In this document: piece by piece, positions 4,570 through 12,320 of the stretch
Numbering within the stretch: the stretch's first letter is position 1
Layout: every line of letters begins with the position of its first letter
DNA from: a virus
Length of the DNA stretch: 17,266 bases
Virus record (IMG/VR): IMGVR_UViG_3300020577_002861
Reading direction: 5' to 3' (one strand)
Notes under the pieces: model-generated
What the model was told of the DNA's origin: nothing
Database searches by the model: none
The model's input: the letters and a program-made list of their open reading frames with translations, nothing else
Program-made: the position numbers and the translations under genes

Positions 4570-5205
4570 TTAGTCTTTTGATTCAATCTTTTCGTATCTC
4601 TCGGCCATAACCTCTTCAATTATCTGCGCAATAGATTCTGGATATAGATCTATATTAGCTACAAATTTATCATTAATCTTATCTAGTGCTTCTATGGTAT
4701 CCGCCTTCGCTATTGCTTCTAATGTCCTGTCTTTTAATGCCGACATATCAGGTTTGGTTTGTGGCACTGCTGGTTTATATGGGGTCTTAGCGACTTCTTT
4801 GTCCTTGCTATTATCCATACCATCAGGGTCATTCTTTGCATCGTCTATTAGGAATAGCCCGCCTAGTGCATACTTTCTCGCATAACTAGATGCCGTTCCT
4901 GTTAGTTGTGGGTCGGACATTTTAGGTCTTGCCACCTCTTCCCTTGCTAGCGCTGTAACCTCTATCGAATCTTTTCCATCCGTAAACTTTGCGGTAGCTT
5001 CAAGATAAAACCTATCTCCCAGCATTATCATCTTGTCAGATAATAAGACTAAATCTCCATTAAGCATTGGTTTGACCGCTTCTAATATTCCCTCACAACT
5101 TCTATAATTAAAATTACCAAAGTCATTATGAATGTTCTTGGGGGACTTTAATCCAATCTGTATCTTTGCCAATCTCTCGTATAAGTTAGTCTTTGTTTTT
5201 TCCAT
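4570..5205 (-). CDS. erf: ERF-family single-strand annealing protein (recombinase)
   Basis: 211 aa. The N-terminal LYERLAKIQIGLKSPKNIHNDFGNFNYRSCEGILEAVKPML and the later TGTASSYARKYALGGLF closely match my recollection of phage P22 Erf (FYARLAEIQEHLNAPKNQYNSFGKYKYRSCEDILEGVKPLL ... SSYARKY). Confidence 0.8.
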   Translation of the reverse strand: MEKTKTNLYERLAKIQIGLKSPKNIHNDFGNFNYRSCEGILEAVKPMLNGDLVLLSDKMIMLGDRFYLEATAKFTDGKDSIEVTALAREEVARPKMSDPQLTGTASSYARKYALGGLFLIDDAKNDPDGMDNSKDKEVAKTPYKPAVPQTKPDMSALKDRTLEAIAKADTIEALDKINDKFVANIDLYPESIAQIIEEVMAERYEKIESKD

Positions 5206-6156: not shown

Positions 6157-6573
6157 TTAAGCTAATAAGCCCTTGTAATAATCATATTTCTTTTGAAAGT
6201 CTTCCTCTGTCCATTTAGTAACTACCCTCTCATAAAAATCTAGTTCCTGTAATATTCCATAGCCATATTGCTCTTCTAGTTTCACTGCGTATACACTTAG
6301 GTTTCCAGACTTGAAATGATTGCATTTTTTGCATTGGCAATGGACATTTTTCTCGTTATACCTCAGTGATAGCCCCGTAACTGATTTAGGTTTATAGTGT
6401 CCTGCCTGTGGCTGGTTAGTAGAACCACAACAGTAGCAGGTATAACTGTCTCTTTTTCGAATATAGGCATTAAATACCCTGTCGAGTTTCTCAATCCAAG
6501 ATCCTCGACTTAGTTTCTTTTTCCCCAACTGTTTTTCTTTTGAGTAGCTAATCATCTGATTCTGTACTTTCAA
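6157..6573 (-). CDS. HNH-type endonuclease, possibly NinG/Rap-like
   Basis: 138 aa with CYCCGSTNQPQAGHY...RYNEKNVHCQCKKCNHFKSGN (Cys pairs plus a His/Asn core). The track start is TTG. An in-frame ATG at 6555 is a plausible alternative start. Confidence 0.65.
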   Translation of the reverse strand: MKVQNQMISYSKEKQLGKKKLSRGSWIEKLDRVFNAYIRKRDSYTCYCCGSTNQPQAGHYKPKSVTGLSLRYNEKNVHCQCKKCNHFKSGNLSVYAVKLEEQYGYGILQELDFYERVVTKWTEEDFQKKYDYYKGLLA

Positions 6574-7282: not shown

Positions 7283-7581
7283 GGTTCTACATTAACATTT
7301 ATCCTGCCTTGAAATCTAGGACTAGTATAGCTTTGGGTATAGGTGCATATTTCTGTGTCCCTATCATCTCCCATTATTAAGACCGAACTGTTTCTAGTTA
7401 CAATGATATGTGGCTTGCAGTTCTCAACTGCTGGACATAATGCACATATCTGCTGAAAGAAACCGCCTAATACTTGCTTCTCTGGCGCATCTTCAAGAGG
7501 TAAAATTGCCCACAAATCTAACTGTTCAACATCTCCTATTTGAAACTTGTAACTAGTTTTTACATCCTGGTTTAACTCCAT
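7279..7581 (-). CDS. hypothetical Cys-containing protein
   Basis: 100-aa ORF. Its start overlaps 29 nt of the upstream HNH gene and its stop overlaps the next ATG. It contains CALCPAVENC. Confidence 0.4.
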   Translation of the reverse strand: MELNQDVKTSYKFQIGDVEQLDLWAILPLEDAPEKQVLGGFFQQICALCPAVENCKPHIIVTRNSSVLIMGDDRDTEICTYTQSYTSPRFQGRINVNVEP

Positions 7582-7879
7582 AACTTCTCAATCTACTATT
7601 TTTAATAAAACCCTCTAACAACATTCTCCCTAGGTGCGTTAGTTTTCCTGTATATTTATCATGTAACGCAATGTGACATTCCCCTGCTCCAACCAACACC
7701 CCATTGTTTATCGGATCATTCTCACCTCCACTATTTAAAGGTACTAGGTGATGAGCCTGTAAACTGTTGGGACACATAGCCTTCCCACACATTCTGCATA
7801 CTGTATCGCCAAACATTTTTCTGCTTTCATCAATTACTGTCGTTCTAAAGAACTGCTTTTGTTCATGGCTTCTTGGCAT
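7553..7879 (-). CDS. HNH endonuclease
   Basis: 108 aa with CRMCGKAMCPNSLQAHHLVPLNSGGENDPINNGVLVGAGECHIALHDK, a canonical CxxC...HH...N...N...CH...H pattern. Confidence 0.75.
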   Translation of the reverse strand: MPRSHEQKQFFRTTVIDESRKMFGDTVCRMCGKAMCPNSLQAHHLVPLNSGGENDPINNGVLVGAGECHIALHDKYTGKLTHLGRMLLEGFIKNSRLRSYGVKPGCKN

Positions 7880-8055: not shown

Positions 8056-8406
8056 TTATTTCTTATATGGGCACTCTGTATCTAGCTCGTATCTCTTTTT
8101 CTTTCTGTTCTCTATGAACAATCTCGTTAAGAACCTGCCTAATCCTGTTAACCCACCTTCGATGTTATGTATTTCCTTTCTATGCAAATCTTTGCAAATT
8201 AAAAGACCCACTTCTGGATCTTGAGAGTGCCTGTCAGAATATGCTTCTGAACAGTGATGAGCTTCTAGTGGTATTTCCTCTCCCTTGTCACTAAACCCAC
8301 ACTCATTCACTGGGCACGCCCTGCAAAATACTGCTCCAAACTCTCTCCTATGATTGGTGATGACGCCTTCTCGAAATTCTCTTTGATTAGGGCGTCTCTC
8401 ACTCAT
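8056..8406 (-). CDS. HNH-like nuclease, a diverged paralog of the 7553..7879 protein
   Basis: 116 aa with CRACPVNEC...EAHHC...ICKDLHRKEIHN. Its N-terminus (REFREGVITNHRREFGAVFCRAC) and C-terminus (LGRFLTRLFIENRKKKRY) align with the neighbour's (KQFFRTTVIDESRKMFGDTVCRMC and LGRMLLEGFIKNSRLRSY). Confidence 0.65.
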   Translation of the reverse strand: MSERRPNQREFREGVITNHRREFGAVFCRACPVNECGFSDKGEEIPLEAHHCSEAYSDRHSQDPEVGLLICKDLHRKEIHNIEGGLTGLGRFLTRLFIENRKKKRYELDTECPYKK

Positions 8407-9513: not shown

Positions 9514-10188
9514 TTAAATTATATCTATGCTGTGCTTGGGCTTCGTAATCCCGCCATACTTACCAAACCTATCGTTCCTAACCCAATTAAAAAAGGCGAG
9601 GCGGAAATCTTTATACTTAGTTTTGTTTGCCTGTATATAACCTGTAAAATCTTCTAGGGCTGTAACAACATCTTTGCCTGGGTTTAGATCTTTTGCTCTT
9701 AAAAGTATTTCCTCTTTATTTTCAATAAATATCCTCTCAGAGTTTATGGGTTTGTTATATATTATAATATCATTATTATCATTATTATCATTATTATCAT
9801 TATTGTTAGTGTCTTGTCTGCTGTCTTTCTGCTGTCTTTCTGCTGTCTTGTCTGTTGTCTTACCACCTTGATATTCGTTATAGTTTACTATTGTAATTAT
9901 TGAAGAAACAGAGTTTTTCTGCTGTCTTATCTGGGACTCATTCTCGAGCCATGTGAGGTAACGGCGAACCTTATCCCTACTCCACCTCCATCTCTTGGAT
10001 AAAGACACCTCACTCCACCCGACTTCCCCTCTTTCAACCTTGAGGATATTTCCCCTTACGGATATGATTCCACTCTTATGATTAGCTAATAAAAGTAAAT
10101 CAACCCAGGCCTGTGCCTTGGTAAACGGTTCTGATAACCAAATGCTGTTATCCATTATTTTTCTATGTAACCATATCCAACCTTCCAT
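9514..10188 (-). CDS. replisome-organizer / replication-initiator-like protein: an N-terminal winged-helix-like domain, a low-complexity NND linker, and a C-terminal domain
   Basis: 224 aa. The N-terminus (WLHRKIMDNSIWLSEPFTKAQAWVDLLLLANHKSGIISVRGNILKVERGEVGWSEVSLSKRW) is typical of phage replisome-organizer N-domains. The linker DTNNNDNNDNNDNND is encoded by tandem DNA repeats. Confidence 0.65.
   Translation of the reverse strand: MEGWIWLHRKIMDNSIWLSEPFTKAQAWVDLLLLANHKSGIISVRGNILKVERGEVGWSEVSLSKRWRWSRDKVRRYLTWLENESQIRQQKNSVSSIITIVNYNEYQGGKTTDKTAERQQKDSRQDTNNNDNNDNNDNNDIIIYNKPINSERIFIENKEEILLRAKDLNPGKDVVTALEDFTGYIQANKTKYKDFRLAFFNWVRNDRFGKYGGITKPKHSIDII
9762..9806. repeat. tandem 9-bp AT-rich repeat (ATTATTATC, about 4 copies) inside the initiator gene
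   Basis: cattattat is repeated. It encodes the NND repeats of the linker. Confidence 0.6.
9811..9861. repeat. tandem 11-bp repeat CTGCTGTCTTT (3-4 copies), iteron-like, inside the initiator gene
   Basis: ctgctgtcttt occurs twice exactly and twice degenerately, adjacent to the AT-rich 9-bp repeats. The 11-bp period is not a multiple of 3. Confidence 0.55.
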
Positions 10189-10361
10189 TAAAGCCTCTCC
10201 TTGGATAATAATTTATAAAGTTTTGCTATCCCCTTAAAATCTTCTTTTTCTAGTAGTTCTAAAATTTCCGCAAGTTCTTTTACCGAAATATCAAAGTTTC
10301 CATATCCAGACACGAAGAACCCTGCTTCATGTAGATTTCTTGCTTTTTCTAGGTATTTCAT
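10188..10361 (-). CDS. small helical protein (57 aa), translationally coupled to the initiator gene
   Basis: Below the track's length cutoff. MKYLEKARNLHEAGFFVSGYGNFDISVKELAEILELLEKEDFKGIAKLYKLLSKERL. Its TAA overlaps the ATG of the downstream gene (TAATG at 10186..10190). Confidence 0.4.
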   Translation of the reverse strand: MKYLEKARNLHEAGFFVSGYGNFDISVKELAEILELLEKEDFKGIAKLYKLLSKERL

Positions 10362-10386
10362 AAAGGTTTTCTAATAAAGAACCTCC

Positions 10387-10416
10387 CACCTATGAAACAT
10401 TGACGGAACATAGGTG
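10387..10416 (-). promoter_or_regulatory. hairpin with an 8-bp perfect stem (CACCTATG / CATAGGTG, 14-nt loop) about 26 nt upstream of the small ORF, next to a GGAGG
   Basis: Read directly from the sequence. Confidence 0.35.
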
Positions 10417-10710
10417 AGAGAAGGCAAAGTCCTATAAGGCTCTAGCTTCTGCTGGTTCTGTGGAAATATTTTTAGTCAATGTTGTCATAAAAATAAGCTA
10501 CTCGCTTTTTAGAAAAAAGTCAAGAGGTTTTGTAAAAAGATCCTGGTGGACATTTTGGAGAGAGACCTCCCCTCCCCAGGGTATCACCAGATGCTATCAG
10601 GCGAGTTTAAAGTGCCCTAGAACGAACGAAAATATGGAAGTGGTACATTGTACCTAGGAATCGTTTTAGAGCATTTTAAAGTCCCTGGTATAGTTCCTTT
10701 GACATTGATT

Positions 10711-10736
10711 AAAAAGAGAGGTAAATGCCCTCTCTT
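10711..10736 (-). terminator. rho-independent terminator (minus strand only)
   Basis: Minus strand: stem AGAGAGG gcattta CCTCTCT followed by TTTTTAATC. On the plus strand no U-tract follows. Confidence 0.5.
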
Positions 10737-10940
10737 CGCAAATAGTTATTTGAGCCACTACGCACAAAAGTCTTTTGCGTTAATTCAGCTTACACTTAGG
10801 GGAAGAGTTTGGCAATAAAAAACTCCTATATTGTGTTTTCAGTTGAGTGTTTAGGTCATCTGTTCGTAAACAACATAGGAGCACACAAAATTATCAGACG
10901 CGGGTTAGTTTAAAAGCAGCCCCGCAGTATCGGTGTACTG
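10711..10940 (-). ncRNA. candidate non-coding transcript of about 225 nt, bracketed by a promoter-like element and a terminator
   Basis: It runs from the predicted start just downstream of TTGCCA-17-TATATT (10974..10946) to the terminator at 10736..10711. No ORF longer than 18 codons. A Bacteroidetes-type TAATTTTG box also occurs at 10893..10886. Confidence 0.25.
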
Positions 10941-10945
10941 CTTTT
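10912..10945. terminator. bidirectional hairpin terminator
   Basis: Stem AAAAGCAG / CTGCTTTT with an inner CCG/CGG stem. U-rich tracts follow on both strands (TTTTAATAT on plus, TTTTAAAC on minus). Confidence 0.5.
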
Positions 10946-10974
10946 AATATACACCCCAACAATAAAAATGGCAA
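10946..10974 (-). promoter_or_regulatory. sigma70-like promoter-like element TTGCCA-N17-TATATT (copy 1 of a duplicated element)
   Basis: -35 at 10974..10969, -10 at 10951..10946, spacer exactly 17 nt. It is embedded in the direct repeat GGGTGTATATTRAAAAG. Confidence 0.35.
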
Positions 10975-10998
10975 GTAGCTTTGAGGAGACTACCTGCC
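10961..10998 (-). terminator. rho-independent terminator, first after the holin gene
   Basis: Minus strand: stem GGCAGGTAG / CTACTTGCC with one mismatch and an 11-nt loop, followed by ATTTTTATT. It lies 38 nt downstream of the holin stop. Confidence 0.45.
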
Positions 10999-11020
10999 AT
11001 AATCTTATACCTTCTTTTTC

Positions 11021-11049
11021 AATATACACCCAGTTTTATTTTCCTGCAA
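11021..11049 (-). promoter_or_regulatory. sigma70-like promoter-like element TTGCAG-N17-TATATT (copy 2), overlapping the holin stop codon
   Basis: -35 at 11049..11044, -10 at 11026..11021, spacer exactly 17 nt. It shares GGGTGTATATT with copy 1. Confidence 0.3.
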
Positions 11050-11314
11050 TAGCCTTAGAAACCTCGGTATCTTTTAGAAGTGCTAGGTATACAACCTGAG
11101 AAGCGCCAAAGATTACGCTGAACCTAGCAAGTAAGTCTTGCCAGTCCATGATTGGTTTTGTACTTACTTCTGCAAACAGTGCTATAGCAAGGGCTAATCC
11201 ACCAGCTACAAGTCTTGTTGCTAATGCACCTTCTAGCTTTAAGAATCTCTTAGCGAGATCTACAATTAGAGGAAGCACTATTCCCGCTAACAATGTTACT
11301 GTGTTTACATCCAT
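11036..11314 (-). CDS. holin, about three TM helices
   Basis: 92 aa with hydrophobic segments VTLLAGIVLPLIVDL, LVAGGLALAIALFAEV and FSVIFGASQVVYLALL. It lies immediately downstream of the lysin. Confidence 0.55.
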   Translation of the reverse strand: MDVNTVTLLAGIVLPLIVDLAKRFLKLEGALATRLVAGGLALAIALFAEVSTKPIMDWQDLLARFSVIFGASQVVYLALLKDTEVSKAIAGK

Positions 11315-11345: not shown

Positions 11346-12320
11346 CTAATTTCTTTTAGAAGGAATCTTTGCAAGTAATTCCCTAAGCCATTTAACAAAT
11401 CTTGCAAGGATTGTAACAGTTGGATCAGGATTAACTCCGCCTCCTCCGCTTGCTTGGCAAGCTCTAAGTTCTTCTTGAAGTCGTTCATTGTTCTTGGTGA
11501 GAACTTCAATAGCACTCTCCTTTTTGCTAAGGTCTTCTTCCAAGTTCTCCTGAGTAGCTGCTGATGCAGCTTTGAAATCAGAAAAGTCAGCATCAAGTTT
11601 ATCTGCCCTAAGAAGTAAATCTTGCTTCTCTTGAGTGCATACTGCAAGCTTAGTATTTAGATCTGTTATAGACCCATTAAGGCTCGAAATTTGACCATCT
11701 TTTTCATTGAGTAGACCCTTAACCGTATTAAGTTCTGTTTGAAGTGCATTTATTTGTCTTCGTAATTCTTCGATCATTTTGTCTGCTGACTTAAAAAGTA
11801 ATTTTAATGCTATTGGATTTCCTTTAGGTATTCCAGTCCAACTAGAACTTTGATACCAACTCTGTAATCCATTCTCATTCTTAGAAACCCAAACCTCTCC
11901 TGTGTCTACAAATCTACCGCCATCACACAAAGCATTGTTTCCACCTCCATTTCTTAGCCATCTAACAATGCAAGTCCAGTGAAGATGAGGTTGTGCCGTT
12001 CCGTTACTATCTCCGCTCTTAGTTATGACCTGACCTTGTTTATAGAAAGCTCCCACTTTAGGTAAATTAGGTGTGTTTATGTGAACGAATTGGTGTTGGA
12101 AGTGAGCCTTATTACCATCTTCCATTTCGTAAACCTTGGGACAGTCTAGTATAAAACTATCCTTCCCATTGGTGCTTAGGATCGTTCCGTCATCAGGGGC
12201 TACAAATGGAAAGTAGACCATGCCCTGGTGTCCATAATCTGTACCCGCATGAGGTACCGTTCTGAAAGATTGGTAATCAGCAAAATTACTGGTTATATGG
12301 TGATCGGTGCACTTTATCAT
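11346..12320 (-). CDS. M23-family metallopeptidase lysin with a C-terminal coiled coil and a basic amphipathic tail
   Basis: 324 aa. HAGTDYG (HxxxD) and HLHW (HxH) are M23 zinc-ligand motifs. The C-terminal ~150 aa form a heptad-rich coiled coil ending in GGGGVNPDPTVTILARFVKWLRELLAKIPSKRN. Confidence 0.75.
   Translation of the reverse strand: MIKCTDHHITSNFADYQSFRTVPHAGTDYGHQGMVYFPFVAPDDGTILSTNGKDSFILDCPKVYEMEDGNKAHFQHQFVHINTPNLPKVGAFYKQGQVITKSGDSNGTAQPHLHWTCIVRWLRNGGGNNALCDGGRFVDTGEVWVSKNENGLQSWYQSSSWTGIPKGNPIALKLLFKSADKMIEELRRQINALQTELNTVKGLLNEKDGQISSLNGSITDLNTKLAVCTQEKQDLLLRADKLDADFSDFKAASAATQENLEEDLSKKESAIEVLTKNNERLQEELRACQASGGGGVNPDPTVTILARFVKWLRELLAKIPSKRN

What the first reader, a model, noticed from the sequence alone, without database searches (positions are those of the whole stretch)
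9762..9861. Iteron-like tandem repeats inside the replication initiator gene suggest a putative phage ori
The linker of the replisome-organizer-like gene (9514..10188) holds about 4 copies of a 9-bp AT-rich unit (ATTATTATC) at 9762..9806. Next to it lie 3-4 copies of an 11-bp unit (CTGCTGTCTTT) at 9811..9861. This matches the lambda O and SPP1 gp38 arrangement. There, the origin's iterons and AT-rich unwinding element lie within the initiator gene's interdomain linker and are bound by the initiator's own N-terminal domain. The 11-bp period is not a codon multiple, so it is not simply an amino-acid repeat.
Basis: partly seen in the sequence, partly recalled or inferred. Interest (0 to 1): 0.6.

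Follow-up and report, generated by a model that had tools for sequence, protein, structure and literature searches.

The report
Phage replication origin inside initiator gene
The repeats are real and match, element for element, the experimentally proven replication origin (oriL) inside the initiator gene of Bacillus phage SPP1, so this is very probably this phage's origin: a new member of a known kind.

Summary
Observation confirmed. Gene 9514..10188 (minus strand, 224 aa) holds the two best tandem arrays in the window. One has five ~11-bp units (coding strand AAGACAGCAGA, 9806..9861). The other has four exact 9-bp units (AATAATGAT, 9769..9804). An extra exact 11-mer lies at 9918..9928.

Interpretation supported. 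The N-terminal domain is homologous to SPP1 G38P (35% identity, E 1e-20). SPP1 gene 38 carries the same layout at the same position, inside the 350-bp fragment that suffices for origin-dependent replication in vitro.

In repeat-blind, non-redundant sets of homologous loci, 89 of 95 have an 11/12-bp-period array at the domain junction. 74 of 95 also have a 9-mer array, usually directly after it. Iteron sequence tracks N-domain similarity. The 9-mer stretch is the least stable duplex in the 17-kb window.

The 9-mer is a DNA motif (AAnAATGAn), not a peptide. Its synonymous T is fixed while the encoded residues vary, and it recurs in SPP1's non-coding oriR at 10-12-bp spacing.

Differences from SPP1: the C-terminal domain is unrelated and no phage helicase or loader is recognisable. 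No experiment exists for this phage. New member of a known kind.

The parts
9514..10188 (-). Replication initiator (replisome organizer) gene, 224 aa. The whole origin lies inside it.
   Evidence: ORF list and translation. PHROG 2514/186 'DnaD-like helicase loader', E 4e-29. BLASTP to SPP1 G38P, E 1e-20.
9862..10188 (-). Codes for the N-terminal domain (aa 1-109), the presumed winged-helix iteron-binding domain and the only part conserved across the family.
   Evidence: Alignment A1. Profile hits to GntR/FadR, MarR and AsnC wHTH regulators over profile positions 49-95, best E 8e-4. No Pfam model covers it, even in G38P.
9918..9928 (-). Outlier iteron: an exact 11/11 copy (TCTGCTGTCTT on the + strand), 67 bp from the nearest array unit, inside the N-domain coding region (aa 87-91, IRQQK).
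   Evidence: An extra iteron 60-100 bp upstream of the array is found in 29 of 80 loci, with almost none at other offsets. SPP1 oriR has two such copies, at 4808 and 4820.
9806..9861 (-). Iteron array of five units at 11/11/11/12-bp spacing: 9850-9861, 9839-9849, 9828-9838, 9817-9827, and a degenerate unit at 9806-9815. Coding strand AAGACAGCAGA. Presumed binding sites for the initiator N-domain. Encodes aa 110-128.
   Evidence: TRF, sequence, exact-copy search. The homologous array in SPP1 oriL ('AB boxes') is bound by G38P (PMC5737612). The clade-wide core ACA[G/A]CAGA is shared with the window's closest relatives.
9769..9804 (-). Four exact copies of the conserved 9-mer AATAATGAT (family motif AAnAATGAn). 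Presumed DNA-unwinding element. Encodes (NND)x4, aa 129-140.
   Evidence: TRF 100% match. Family position-frequency matrix and synonymous-site test. Same motif in non-coding SPP1 oriR. Least stable duplex in the window.
9750..9768 (-). AT-rich tail directly after the 9-mers (coding strand ATTATAATATATAAC...), completing the low-stability block.
   Evidence: The 60-bp window 9750-9809 has the least negative nearest-neighbour dG of the whole window (z 3.96, GC 0.13). Comparable AT-rich tails follow the motif in SPP1 oriR and in L137.
9517..9749 (-). Codes for the C-terminal domain (aa ~147-224). Presumed to recruit the helicase or its loader. Unrelated to G38P's Phg_2220_C domain.
   Evidence: No Pfam hit. 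Shared with Vibrio breoganii phage homologues (97% coverage, 40% identity). C-domains across the family are heterogeneous.

Best explanation
Window 9750..9928 is the phage's theta-type origin of replication, an orthologue of SPP1 oriL, embedded in the gene of the initiator that uses it.

Proposed mechanism:
1. The winged-helix N-terminal domain of the 224-aa initiator binds the direct-repeat iterons (core GACAGCAGA). These are spaced one per helical turn, so the bound proteins line up on one face of the DNA. The outlier iteron about 67 bp away is probably also bound.
2. On supercoiled DNA, this nucleoprotein complex destabilises the adjacent AAnAATGAn 9-mer array and its AT-rich tail, the weakest duplex in the region.
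3. The lineage-specific C-terminal domain brings a replicative helicase, directly or through a loader, onto the melted DNA.

Shown here: the repeats, their statistical significance, protein homology to G38P, element-by-element correspondence with SPP1 oriL and oriR, family-wide conservation, DNA-level constraint on the 9-mer, and the stability minimum.

Inferred from SPP1, 80alpha and lambda: binding, melting, helicase loading, and origin firing in this particular phage.
For: (1) The repeats are real and non-random.

(2) The N-domain is homologous to G38P (E 1e-20).

(3) SPP1 gene 38 has the same grammar. An 11-bp array at nt 360-410 is followed by a 9-bp AACAATGAT array at nt 418-449. Both lie inside the oriL fragment 35801-36151 (PMC5615212). 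G38P binds these repeats, and the adjacent AT-rich tract is the DUE (PMC5737612, PMC6316719).

(4) Repeat-blind, non-redundant, intact loci:
- 46 of 50 have an 11/12-bp-family array (prophages and phage records).
- 43 of 45 have one in the window's own clade.
- 36 of 50 and 38 of 45 also have a 9-mer array. In most loci it starts 0-10 bp after the iterons.
- Such arrays are 17 times denser in these genes than elsewhere in the same loci (1.42/kb against 0.082/kb).

(5) Iteron sequence differs between clades but tracks N-domain identity (Mantel test, 0 of 2000 permutations). The window's core recurs in its nearest relatives.

(6) The 9-mer shows DNA-level constraint. The middle Asn codon is AAT in 28 of 28 loci where it encodes Asn, against 62% AAT elsewhere in the same genes. 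G7 is invariant while the encoded residue varies (D/E/V). Position 3 varies, including N/K changes.

(7) SPP1's non-coding oriR has the same iterons, the same AACAATGA motifs and an AT-rich tail.

(8) 9750-9809 is the least stable duplex of the window at 40-, 60- and 100-bp scales (z 3.7-4.2).

(9) In Staphylococcus phage 80alpha, deletion of the G38P homologue cannot be complemented in trans, which suggests an embedded origin (PMC5499656).

(10) Neighbouring genes are a phage early recombination/replication module: Erf-like SSAP, NinG/Rap and HNH.
Against: - There is no experimental datum for this phage. Everything functional is transferred by homology at 35% identity.
- The C-terminal domain is not G38P's Phg_2220_C. 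No G39P- or G40P-like loader or helicase is recognisable in the window, so the downstream steps may differ.
- SPP1 shows that a G38P-bound repeat cluster need not fire: oriR is proposed to act as a fork barrier (PMC6316719). Only 17 kb of the genome is visible, so another origin cannot be excluded.
- GC skew shows no inflection at the site. This is weak evidence, because all genes are on one strand.
- The wHTH assignment rests on weak profile hits (E 8e-4). The structure model was unusable (pLDDT 35).
Confidence: 0.82

Rival explanations
1. The repeats are only a low-complexity, slippage-generated coding linker (K/T/Q/D-rich, then NND repeats) with no function as DNA.
For: They do encode a hydrophilic interdomain linker. 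The iterons are T-poor on the coding strand (7.5% T against 24.6% in the rest of the genes), as a polar linker would require. Tandem repeats can arise by slippage.
Against: The 11-bp period is read in all three frames, so it gives no simple peptide repeat. The period and position are conserved in 89 of 95 loci while the sequence is not. The synonymous T of the 9-mer is fixed and the amino acids vary. The same two motifs occur in non-coding SPP1 oriR. The homologous SPP1 segment is a proven origin (PMC5737612).
Confidence: 0.03
2. The cluster is an initiator-binding site that does not fire. It would act as an autoregulatory operator or roadblock within the initiator's own gene, or as a fork-arrest site like SPP1 oriR, with the true origin in the unseen part of the genome.
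For: SPP1 has two G38P-bound sites, and oriR is proposed to stall forks rather than initiate (PMC6316719, PMC3485210 abstract). Only 17 kb is visible. Binding inside the gene could hinder transcription.
Against: In SPP1 the copy inside the gene (oriL) is the one that fires (PMC5737612). The window copy has the full grammar plus the strongest stability minimum in the window. No second cluster exists in the window.
Confidence: 0.08
3. The 11-bp array is a frameshift (phase-variation) switch. Gain or loss of one unit changes the frame and toggles between a full-length initiator and an N-domain-only protein.
For: Two prophage homologues (L086 and L117) are frameshifted within the iteron array, and the C-domain continues in another frame. 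Short forms with the N-domain plus origin exist (L044, L116, L139).
Against: The broken genes are a small minority and sit in prophages or MAGs, where decay or assembly error is likely. 12-bp-period lineages could not switch in this way. The idea does not explain the 9-mer, oriR or the SPP1 biochemistry.
Confidence: 0.03
4. The near-identical 9-mer array is conserved mainly because it serves as a short homology patch for recombination. That recombination would swap N-domain-plus-iteron modules against different C-domains. On this view the conservation reflects horizontal spread, not origin function.
For: The C-domains after the array belong to at least four unrelated Pfam families or to none (20 DnaB_2, 7 Phg_2220_C, 1 DnaA_N, 1 DUF7833 and 62 without a hit, of 91), while the N-domains are homologous. 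The joint lies at the array.
Against: The motif is also present in non-coding oriR, where no domain joint exists. It always abuts the iterons on the same side and coincides with the duplex-stability minimum. Recombination could be a by-product of its conservation.
Confidence: 0.04

Closest known systems
Bacillus phage SPP1 oriL inside gene 38 (replisome organizer G38P)
   Same: The N-terminal domains are homologous (35% identity, E 1e-20). The origin is embedded at the same gene position, about nt 330-450. The order of elements on the coding strand is the same: outlier iteron, tandem ~11-bp direct-repeat iterons, repeats of AAnAATGAn, then AT-rich DNA.
   Different: The iteron sequence differs (GACAGCAGA against RAAAMGACAC). 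The C-terminal domain is unrelated, with no Phg_2220_C. No G39P-like loader or G40P-like helicase is recognisable nearby. The closest relatives are Vibrio phages and environmental contigs, not Bacillus phages. A second, oriR-like site was not seen in the 17-kb window.
Staphylococcus phage 80alpha ORF20 (G38P homologue with a genetically inferred embedded origin)
   Same: It belongs to the same initiator family. The origin is inferred to lie in the gene because the deletion cannot be complemented in trans (PMC5499656). Related staphylococcal phages I examined (PVL, SA12, phi879) carry the 11-bp and 9-bp arrays.
   Different: The staphylococcal proteins I scanned carry a DnaB_2 (DnaD-like) C-domain (PVL). 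80alpha pairs ORF20 with a DnaC-like loader (PMC5499656). The window protein has neither.
Phage lambda ori-lambda inside gene O
   Same: The origin lies in the middle of the initiator gene. Iterons are followed by an AT-rich tract. The initiator is not an AAA+ protein. Unwinding of ori-lambda requires negatively supercoiled DNA (PMC7466680). O protein also binds the single-stranded AT-rich DNA (PMC7466680).
   Different: Lambda's iterons are four 19-bp imperfect inverted repeats (PMC7466680), not 11-bp direct repeats. No AAnAATGAn array was seen in the lambdoid O-like relatives examined (HK75, CobraSix). Similarity to lambdoid O-like proteins is only 25-27% (E 1e-4), and lambda O itself was not tested.
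Iteron-type plasmid origins (for example pPS10, R6K, RK2; from general knowledge)
   Same: Direct-repeat iterons are bound by a winged-helix initiator next to an AT-rich DUE.
   Different: Plasmid iterons are typically 17-22 bp, lie outside the rep gene, and the origins usually include DnaA boxes. Here the iterons are 11 bp, touch each other, and are translated.

Membership tests
SPP1 G38P / oriL-type origin embedded in the replisome-organizer gene | The initiator N-terminal (origin-binding) domain is homologous to G38P. | tested here: met
   BLASTP 35% identity over aa 2-125, E 1e-20. PHROG 2514/186. Both proteins align in A1.
SPP1 G38P / oriL-type origin embedded in the replisome-organizer gene | Tandem direct repeats (iterons, 'AB boxes') lie inside the gene just after the N-domain coding region. 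| tested here: met
   Window 9806-9861, gene nt 328-383. SPP1 gene nt 360-410. 89 of 95 repeat-blind homologous loci have them.
SPP1 G38P / oriL-type origin embedded in the replisome-organizer gene | An AT-rich unwinding element lies directly 3' of the iterons on the coding strand. | tested here: met
   9750-9809 is the least stable duplex in the window. The same AAnAATGAn repeats occur in SPP1 oriL and oriR.
SPP1 G38P / oriL-type origin embedded in the replisome-organizer gene | The initiator binds the repeats specifically. | not testable with these tools
   This needs EMSA or footprinting. The only indirect support is that iteron sequence covaries with N-domain identity.
SPP1 G38P / oriL-type origin embedded in the replisome-organizer gene | The fragment supports initiator-dependent replication. 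| not testable with these tools
   Shown for SPP1 (PMC5737612) and inferred genetically for 80alpha (PMC5499656). Not shown for this phage.
SPP1 G38P / oriL-type origin embedded in the replisome-organizer gene | A Phg_2220_C C-terminal domain and adjacent G39P loader and G40P helicase genes (the SPP1 module). | tested here: not met
   No Pfam hit in the window's C-domain, whereas G38P hits PF09524 at 2e-20. The downstream 129-aa ORF has no similarity to G39P. No helicase is recognisable in the window. This feature varies across the family, so it defines the SPP1 module, not the origin type.
Lambda O / ori-lambda | 19-bp iterons with internal inverted-repeat symmetry. | tested here: not met
   The units are 11-bp direct repeats with no dyad symmetry. 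Lambda description from PMC7466680.
Lambda O / ori-lambda | The origin (iterons plus AT-rich tract) lies in the middle of the initiator gene. | tested here: met
Lambda O / ori-lambda | The initiator is homologous to lambda O. | tested here: inconclusive
   tblastn with the N-domain reaches lambdoid genes annotated as 'replication protein O' (HK75, mEp234) at 25-27% identity, E about 1e-4. Lambda O itself was not compared.
DnaD / DnaB_2 helicase-loader family (the PHROG label) | A DnaB_2 (PF07261) domain. | tested here: not met
   No Pfam hit at E up to 10 apart from noise. Only 20 of 91 family members carry DnaB_2 in the C-terminal part. The PHROG name reflects those members.

The most novel reading that the evidence does not exclude
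The 'AT-rich unwinding element' of this origin family may be a sequence-specific, strand-oriented repeat, AAnAATGAn. It has an invariant G and a fixed synonymous T. It is conserved from Bacillota phages to Vibrio and Shewanella phages and to Planctomycetota-associated contigs, whatever C-domain, loader or helicase the phage uses.

The only protein part shared by all these systems is the initiator N-domain. The motif could therefore be a second recognition site for that domain. One possibility is a single-strand contact that captures the melted strand, by analogy with DnaA-trios (general knowledge) or with lambda O binding its AT-rich single strand (PMC7466680).

If so, the grammar of outlier iteron, helical-turn iterons and AAnAATGAn repeats would be a general, searchable signature for origins in thousands of uncultured phages.
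Probability: 0.35. Interest if true: 0.55.

Novelty: new member of a known kind. Interest (0 to 1): 0.35.

Why it matters
For this phage, the result places the replication origin within about 180 bp and names its initiator. That helps with annotation, with building shuttle or ori-based vectors, and with origin-based interference against the phage.

More broadly, the comparison shows that the SPP1 oriL layout is not peculiar to Bacillus phages. It is a conserved grammar, found in about 94% of the homologous initiator genes sampled without reference to the repeats. The hosts are diverse and the C-terminal domains are interchangeable.

This gives a simple sequence rule for predicting origins in metagenomic phages. 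It also raises a testable question: why is the unwinding element a specific 9-mer and not merely AT-rich DNA?

Tried and rejected
- The first locus set was partly seeded by the peptide NNNDNNDN, so its 68 of 68 result is biased for the 9-mer. I replaced it with three repeat-blind sets.
- Alignment A1 was too diverse for the collection scans. A tighter alignment, A2, was used instead.
- Rfam and tRNA scans of the window found nothing.
- GC skew shows no inflection at 9.8 kb. It flattens in the non-coding gap at 10.2-11.1 kb. This is uninformative, because all genes lie on one strand.
- A search for a second, oriR-like iteron cluster found none in the window and none in 193 loci. The held flanks are only 1.5-6 kb, so the negative result says little.
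- Searching the literature for the 9-mer strings returned only irrelevant papers. Papers on Sam112 and B83 do not describe the origin. The original footprinting paper (Missich 1997) is not held, so I could not check exactly which bases G38P protects.
- Structure prediction failed. No fold search was run.
- The 129-aa ORF downstream of the initiator has no similarity to G39P. The upstream 57-aa ORF compared with SPP1 gene 37.3 gives only E 0.001 over 25 aa, which is inconclusive.
- The + strand ORF 9674..9871 (65 aa) is an artefact of the stop-free repeats.
- The promoter-like hits at 9764-9827 are consensus matches caused by the AT-rich repeats.
- I considered a DnaA-box reading of the 9-mer. 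By eye, TTATCATTA matches TTATCCACA at only about 5 of 9 positions, so I rejected it.
Full report
OBSERVATION

The gene at 9514..10188 lies on the minus strand and encodes 224 aa. Tandem Repeats Finder reports a 9-bp array at 9768..9804 (4.1 copies, 100% match, score 74). It also reports an 11-bp array at 9810..9861 (4.5 copies, 92% match, score 83). These are the two best-scoring arrays in the 17,266-bp window.

On the coding strand the 9-mer is AATAATGAT. It occurs as four exact copies at 9769..9804 and encodes (NND)x4, aa 129-140. The 11-mer is AAGACAGCAGA:
- exact units at + strand 9817, 9828 and 9839;
- a one-mismatch unit at 9851;
- a degenerate unit at 9806..9815.

All four exact copies in the window lie in this gene. 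About 0.008 exact copies are expected by chance. The 10-mer with up to 1 mismatch gives 7 hits against 1.5 expected, and 0 of 200 shuffles reach that number.

THE PROTEIN

PHROGs assigns the protein to 'DnaD-like helicase loader / replication initiation protein' families (phrog_2514, E 4e-29). Pfam finds nothing.

The closest annotated relatives are Vibrio breoganii phages, at 40% identity over 97% of the length. A search with the N-terminal 105 aa alone reaches many other phages:
- Staphylococcus, Bacillus, Listeria, Clostridium and Lactobacillus phages;
- Shewanella, Sulfitobacter and Enterobacter phages;
- at 25-27% identity, lambdoid genes annotated as 'replication protein O'.

A profile of the N-domain gives weak but consistent hits to GntR/FadR, MarR and AsnC winged-helix regulators over positions 49-95 (best E 8e-4). 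Neighbouring genes form a phage early module: an Erf-like annealing protein (4570..5205), NinG/Rap (6157..6573) and an HNH nuclease (7553..7879). Late genes lie on the other side of a non-coding gap.

THE DECISIVE COMPARISON: SPP1

The window protein is homologous to the SPP1 replisome organizer G38P over aa 2-125 (35% identity, E 1e-20).

SPP1 gene 38 contains an 11-bp array x4.6 at gene nt 360-410 (AGAAACGACAG / GAAAAAGACAC). It is followed at nt 418-449 by a 9-bp array, AACAATGAT x3.6. This is the same layout at the same place in the gene.

These arrays map to SPP1 coordinates 35937-36026. That lies in the middle of the oriL fragment 35801-36151 used experimentally (PMC5615212).

According to PMC5737612:
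- oriL is embedded in gene 38;
- it consists of repeats ('AB boxes', iterons) bound by G38P, plus an adjacent AT-rich DUE;
- a 356-bp fragment is necessary and sufficient for theta replication in vitro.

PMC6316719 states the same and adds a second G38P-bound origin, oriR, in non-coding DNA. In Staphylococcus phage 80alpha, deletion of the G38P homologue cannot be complemented in trans, which suggests an embedded origin (PMC5499656).

FAMILY-WIDE TEST

A first set of 66 IMG/VR loci plus two Vibrio phages showed arrays in the gene in 68 of 68 loci. That set was partly seeded with the peptide NNNDNNDN, so it is biased for the 9-mer.

I therefore built repeat-blind sets:
- phage records found by tblastn with the N-domain only;
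- prophages found with N-domain motifs only;
- metagenome contigs found with the window's N-domain.

After removing redundancy and broken genes, the counts were as follows.

| Set | Loci | With 11/12-bp-family array | With 9-mer array |
|---|---|---|---|
| Prophages and phage records | 50 | 46 | 36 |
| Window's own clade | 45 | 43 | 38 |
| Combined | 95 | 89 | 74 |

The 11/12-bp family includes periods of 10-12 bp and their two- and three-fold multiples.

In the loci analysed, the iteron array begins at gene nt ~325-385. The 9-mer array usually starts 0-10 bp after it. Arrays of this period family are 17 times denser in these genes than elsewhere in the same loci (1.42/kb against 0.082/kb).

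Both 11-bp and 12-bp periods occur, even within the window's clade. The constraint is therefore about one site per helical turn, not avoidance of a codon multiple.

ITERONS BEHAVE LIKE SPECIFICITY DETERMINANTS

Iteron sequence differs between clades:
- SPP1 group: RAAAMGACAC;
- window clade: ACA[G/A]CAGA;
- others are quite different.

Sharing of iteron 7-mers rises steadily with N-domain identity, from 0.016 below 30% identity to 0.086 at 60-81%. In a Mantel test, 0 of 2000 permutations reach the observed correlation.

The window's core recurs in its nearest relatives:
- L137: GGACAACAGAC / AAGACAGCGGA;
- L204: ACAGCAGAAAGACAGCAGACAG;
- Vibrio phage 1.064.O: GGACAGCAGAC.

An isolated extra iteron 60-100 bp upstream of the array is found in 29 of 80 loci, with almost none at other offsets. 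The window's copy at 9918 fits this pattern, and SPP1 oriR has two such copies.

The arrays are strongly T-poor on the coding strand (7.5% T against 24.6% in the rest of the genes). I read this as the price of being translated in all three frames, with no stop codons and few hydrophobic residues. That reading is an inference.

THE 9-MER IS A DNA MOTIF

In 29 repeat-blind, non-redundant loci the per-locus consensus is A-A-[T16/G10/C3]-A-A-T(28)-G(28)-A(24)/T(5)-[T17/A11/G1].

The encoded residues vary (N/K, then N, then D/E/V), while A1, A2, A4, A5, T6 and G7 are fixed. The middle Asn codon is AAT in 28 of 28 loci. Elsewhere in the same genes, AAT makes up 62% of Asn codons. If the loci were independent this would give about 1e-6. 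They are not fully independent, so the figure is rough. In the other set the count is 45 of 45, against a background of 55%.

SPP1's non-coding oriR provides the cleanest evidence. It has:
- two upstream iterons, at 4808 and 4820;
- three tandem iterons, at 4877-4909;
- then AACAATAT, AACAATGAT, AACAATGAG and AACAATAA at 12-, 10- and 10-bp spacing;
- then AT-rich DNA.

The motif therefore exists without any reading frame. The exact 9-bp spacing in oriL-type copies is what translation imposes.

In the window, 9750..9809 is the least stable duplex of all 17 kb, at 40-, 60- and 100-bp scales (z 4.2, 4.0 and 3.7).

ARCHITECTURE OF THE PROTEIN FAMILY

The regions C-terminal to the repeats are heterogeneous. 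Of 91 scanned:
- 20 have DnaB_2;
- 7 have Phg_2220_C;
- 1 has DnaA_N;
- 1 has DUF7833;
- 62, including the window, have no Pfam hit.

The origin therefore sits at the joint between a conserved origin-binding domain and interchangeable partner-recruiting domains. The window has no recognisable helicase or loader. Its downstream 129-aa ORF is not G39P-like.

MECHANISM (INFERRED)

1. The N-domain binds the iterons on one face of the helix. The outlier site probably adds to, or bends, the complex.
2. On supercoiled DNA, the adjacent AAnAATGAn / AT-rich block melts.
3. The C-domain recruits a helicase, directly or through an unidentified loader.

Steps 1-3 are shown for SPP1 (PMC5737612, PMC3561973) and, in analogous form, for lambda (PMC7466680). 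None is shown for this phage.

RIVALS

- A purely coding low-complexity linker is contradicted by the period and position conservation, the synonymous-site data and oriR.
- A binding site that does not fire, like oriR, cannot be excluded with only 17 kb in view. In SPP1, though, the copy inside the gene is the one that fires.
- A frameshift switch is suggested by two prophage genes broken inside the array (L086 and L117). It cannot apply to 12-bp lineages and explains little else.
- A recombination-joint role for the 9-mers is plausible as a by-product, but it does not explain oriR.

NOVELTY

This is a new member of a known kind, an SPP1 oriL-type origin embedded in its initiator gene. It differs from SPP1 in iteron sequence, C-domain and apparent partners.

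I did not find the following described in the papers I could search:
- the family-wide grammar;
- the sequence-specific nature of the supposed 'AT-rich' element.

The key older papers were not available, so I do not claim priority:
- Missich et al. 1997;
- Weigel and Seitz 2006, which I did not look up.

FAILED OR UNINFORMATIVE ATTEMPTS

- GC skew showed no inflection at the site.
- Rfam and tRNA scans found nothing.
- Structure prediction was unusable.
- The search for a second iteron cluster in the held flanks found none.
- The comparison of the upstream ORF with SPP1 gene 37.3 was inconclusive.

Noticed in passing
L086 (Peptoniphilus sp. prophage), gene nt 356-489; L117, gene nt ~305-410: The initiator ORF is broken inside the 11-bp iteron array, and the C-terminal part continues in the +1 frame (in L086: ...NNNDNNDNND...). 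This is what gain or loss of one 11-bp unit would cause. It may explain why 33-bp super-periods are common.
   Followed up: partly
L044, L116, L139, L073 and L035 (initiator genes): Some homologues are 'short' initiators that end soon after the 9-mer array, so they have the N-domain and origin but little or no C-domain. In L035 a separate 618-aa ORF that looks primase-like by eye (not tested) follows directly.
   Followed up: partly
window 10362..11035: A 674-bp non-coding gap separates the late/lysis genes from the early module. GC skew drops to about 0 there. The best promoter-like site on the minus strand is at 10974..10946 (10 of 12 matches). Several inverted repeats are present (10383-10420, 10396/10467). 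There are no Rfam, tRNA or iteron matches. It is probably the early regulatory region.
   Followed up: partly
window 10188..10361 (minus strand): The end coordinate of this 57-aa ORF (10188, which includes its stop codon) coincides with the initiator's first base, so the two ORFs overlap and may be translationally coupled. It is the same length as SPP1 gene 37.3, which sits in the same position, but the similarity is only E 0.001 over 25 aa.
   Followed up: partly
L152 (SPP1 genome) 4808..4960: In non-coding oriR the AACAATGA motif is spaced 10-12 bp apart. In the coding oriL it is spaced exactly 9 bp. The reading frame appears to force the spacing of an origin element.
   Followed up: yes
L146 (Listeria A118), L147 (Lactobacillus iA2), L126/L129/L138 (Enterococcus), and many of L153-L232: These lineages use a 12-bp rather than an 11-bp iteron period. 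The lambdoid O-like genes (L149 CobraSix, L150 HK75) and Sulfitobacter phage (L151) have 11-bp arrays but no 9-mer array.
   Followed up: partly
window 7553..7879 and 8056..8406 (minus strand): Two neighbouring small ORFs look like HNH-type paralogues. Only the first passes Pfam HNH. Both share the C-x2-C ... HH pattern.
   Followed up: no
window 11346..12320 (minus strand): A 324-aa protein has an N-terminal metallo-endopeptidase match (PHROG 7767) and a long C-terminal part that looks coiled-coil by eye. It is probably the lysin and lies just upstream of a small ORF that looks membrane-protein-like by eye (11036..11314).
   Followed up: no
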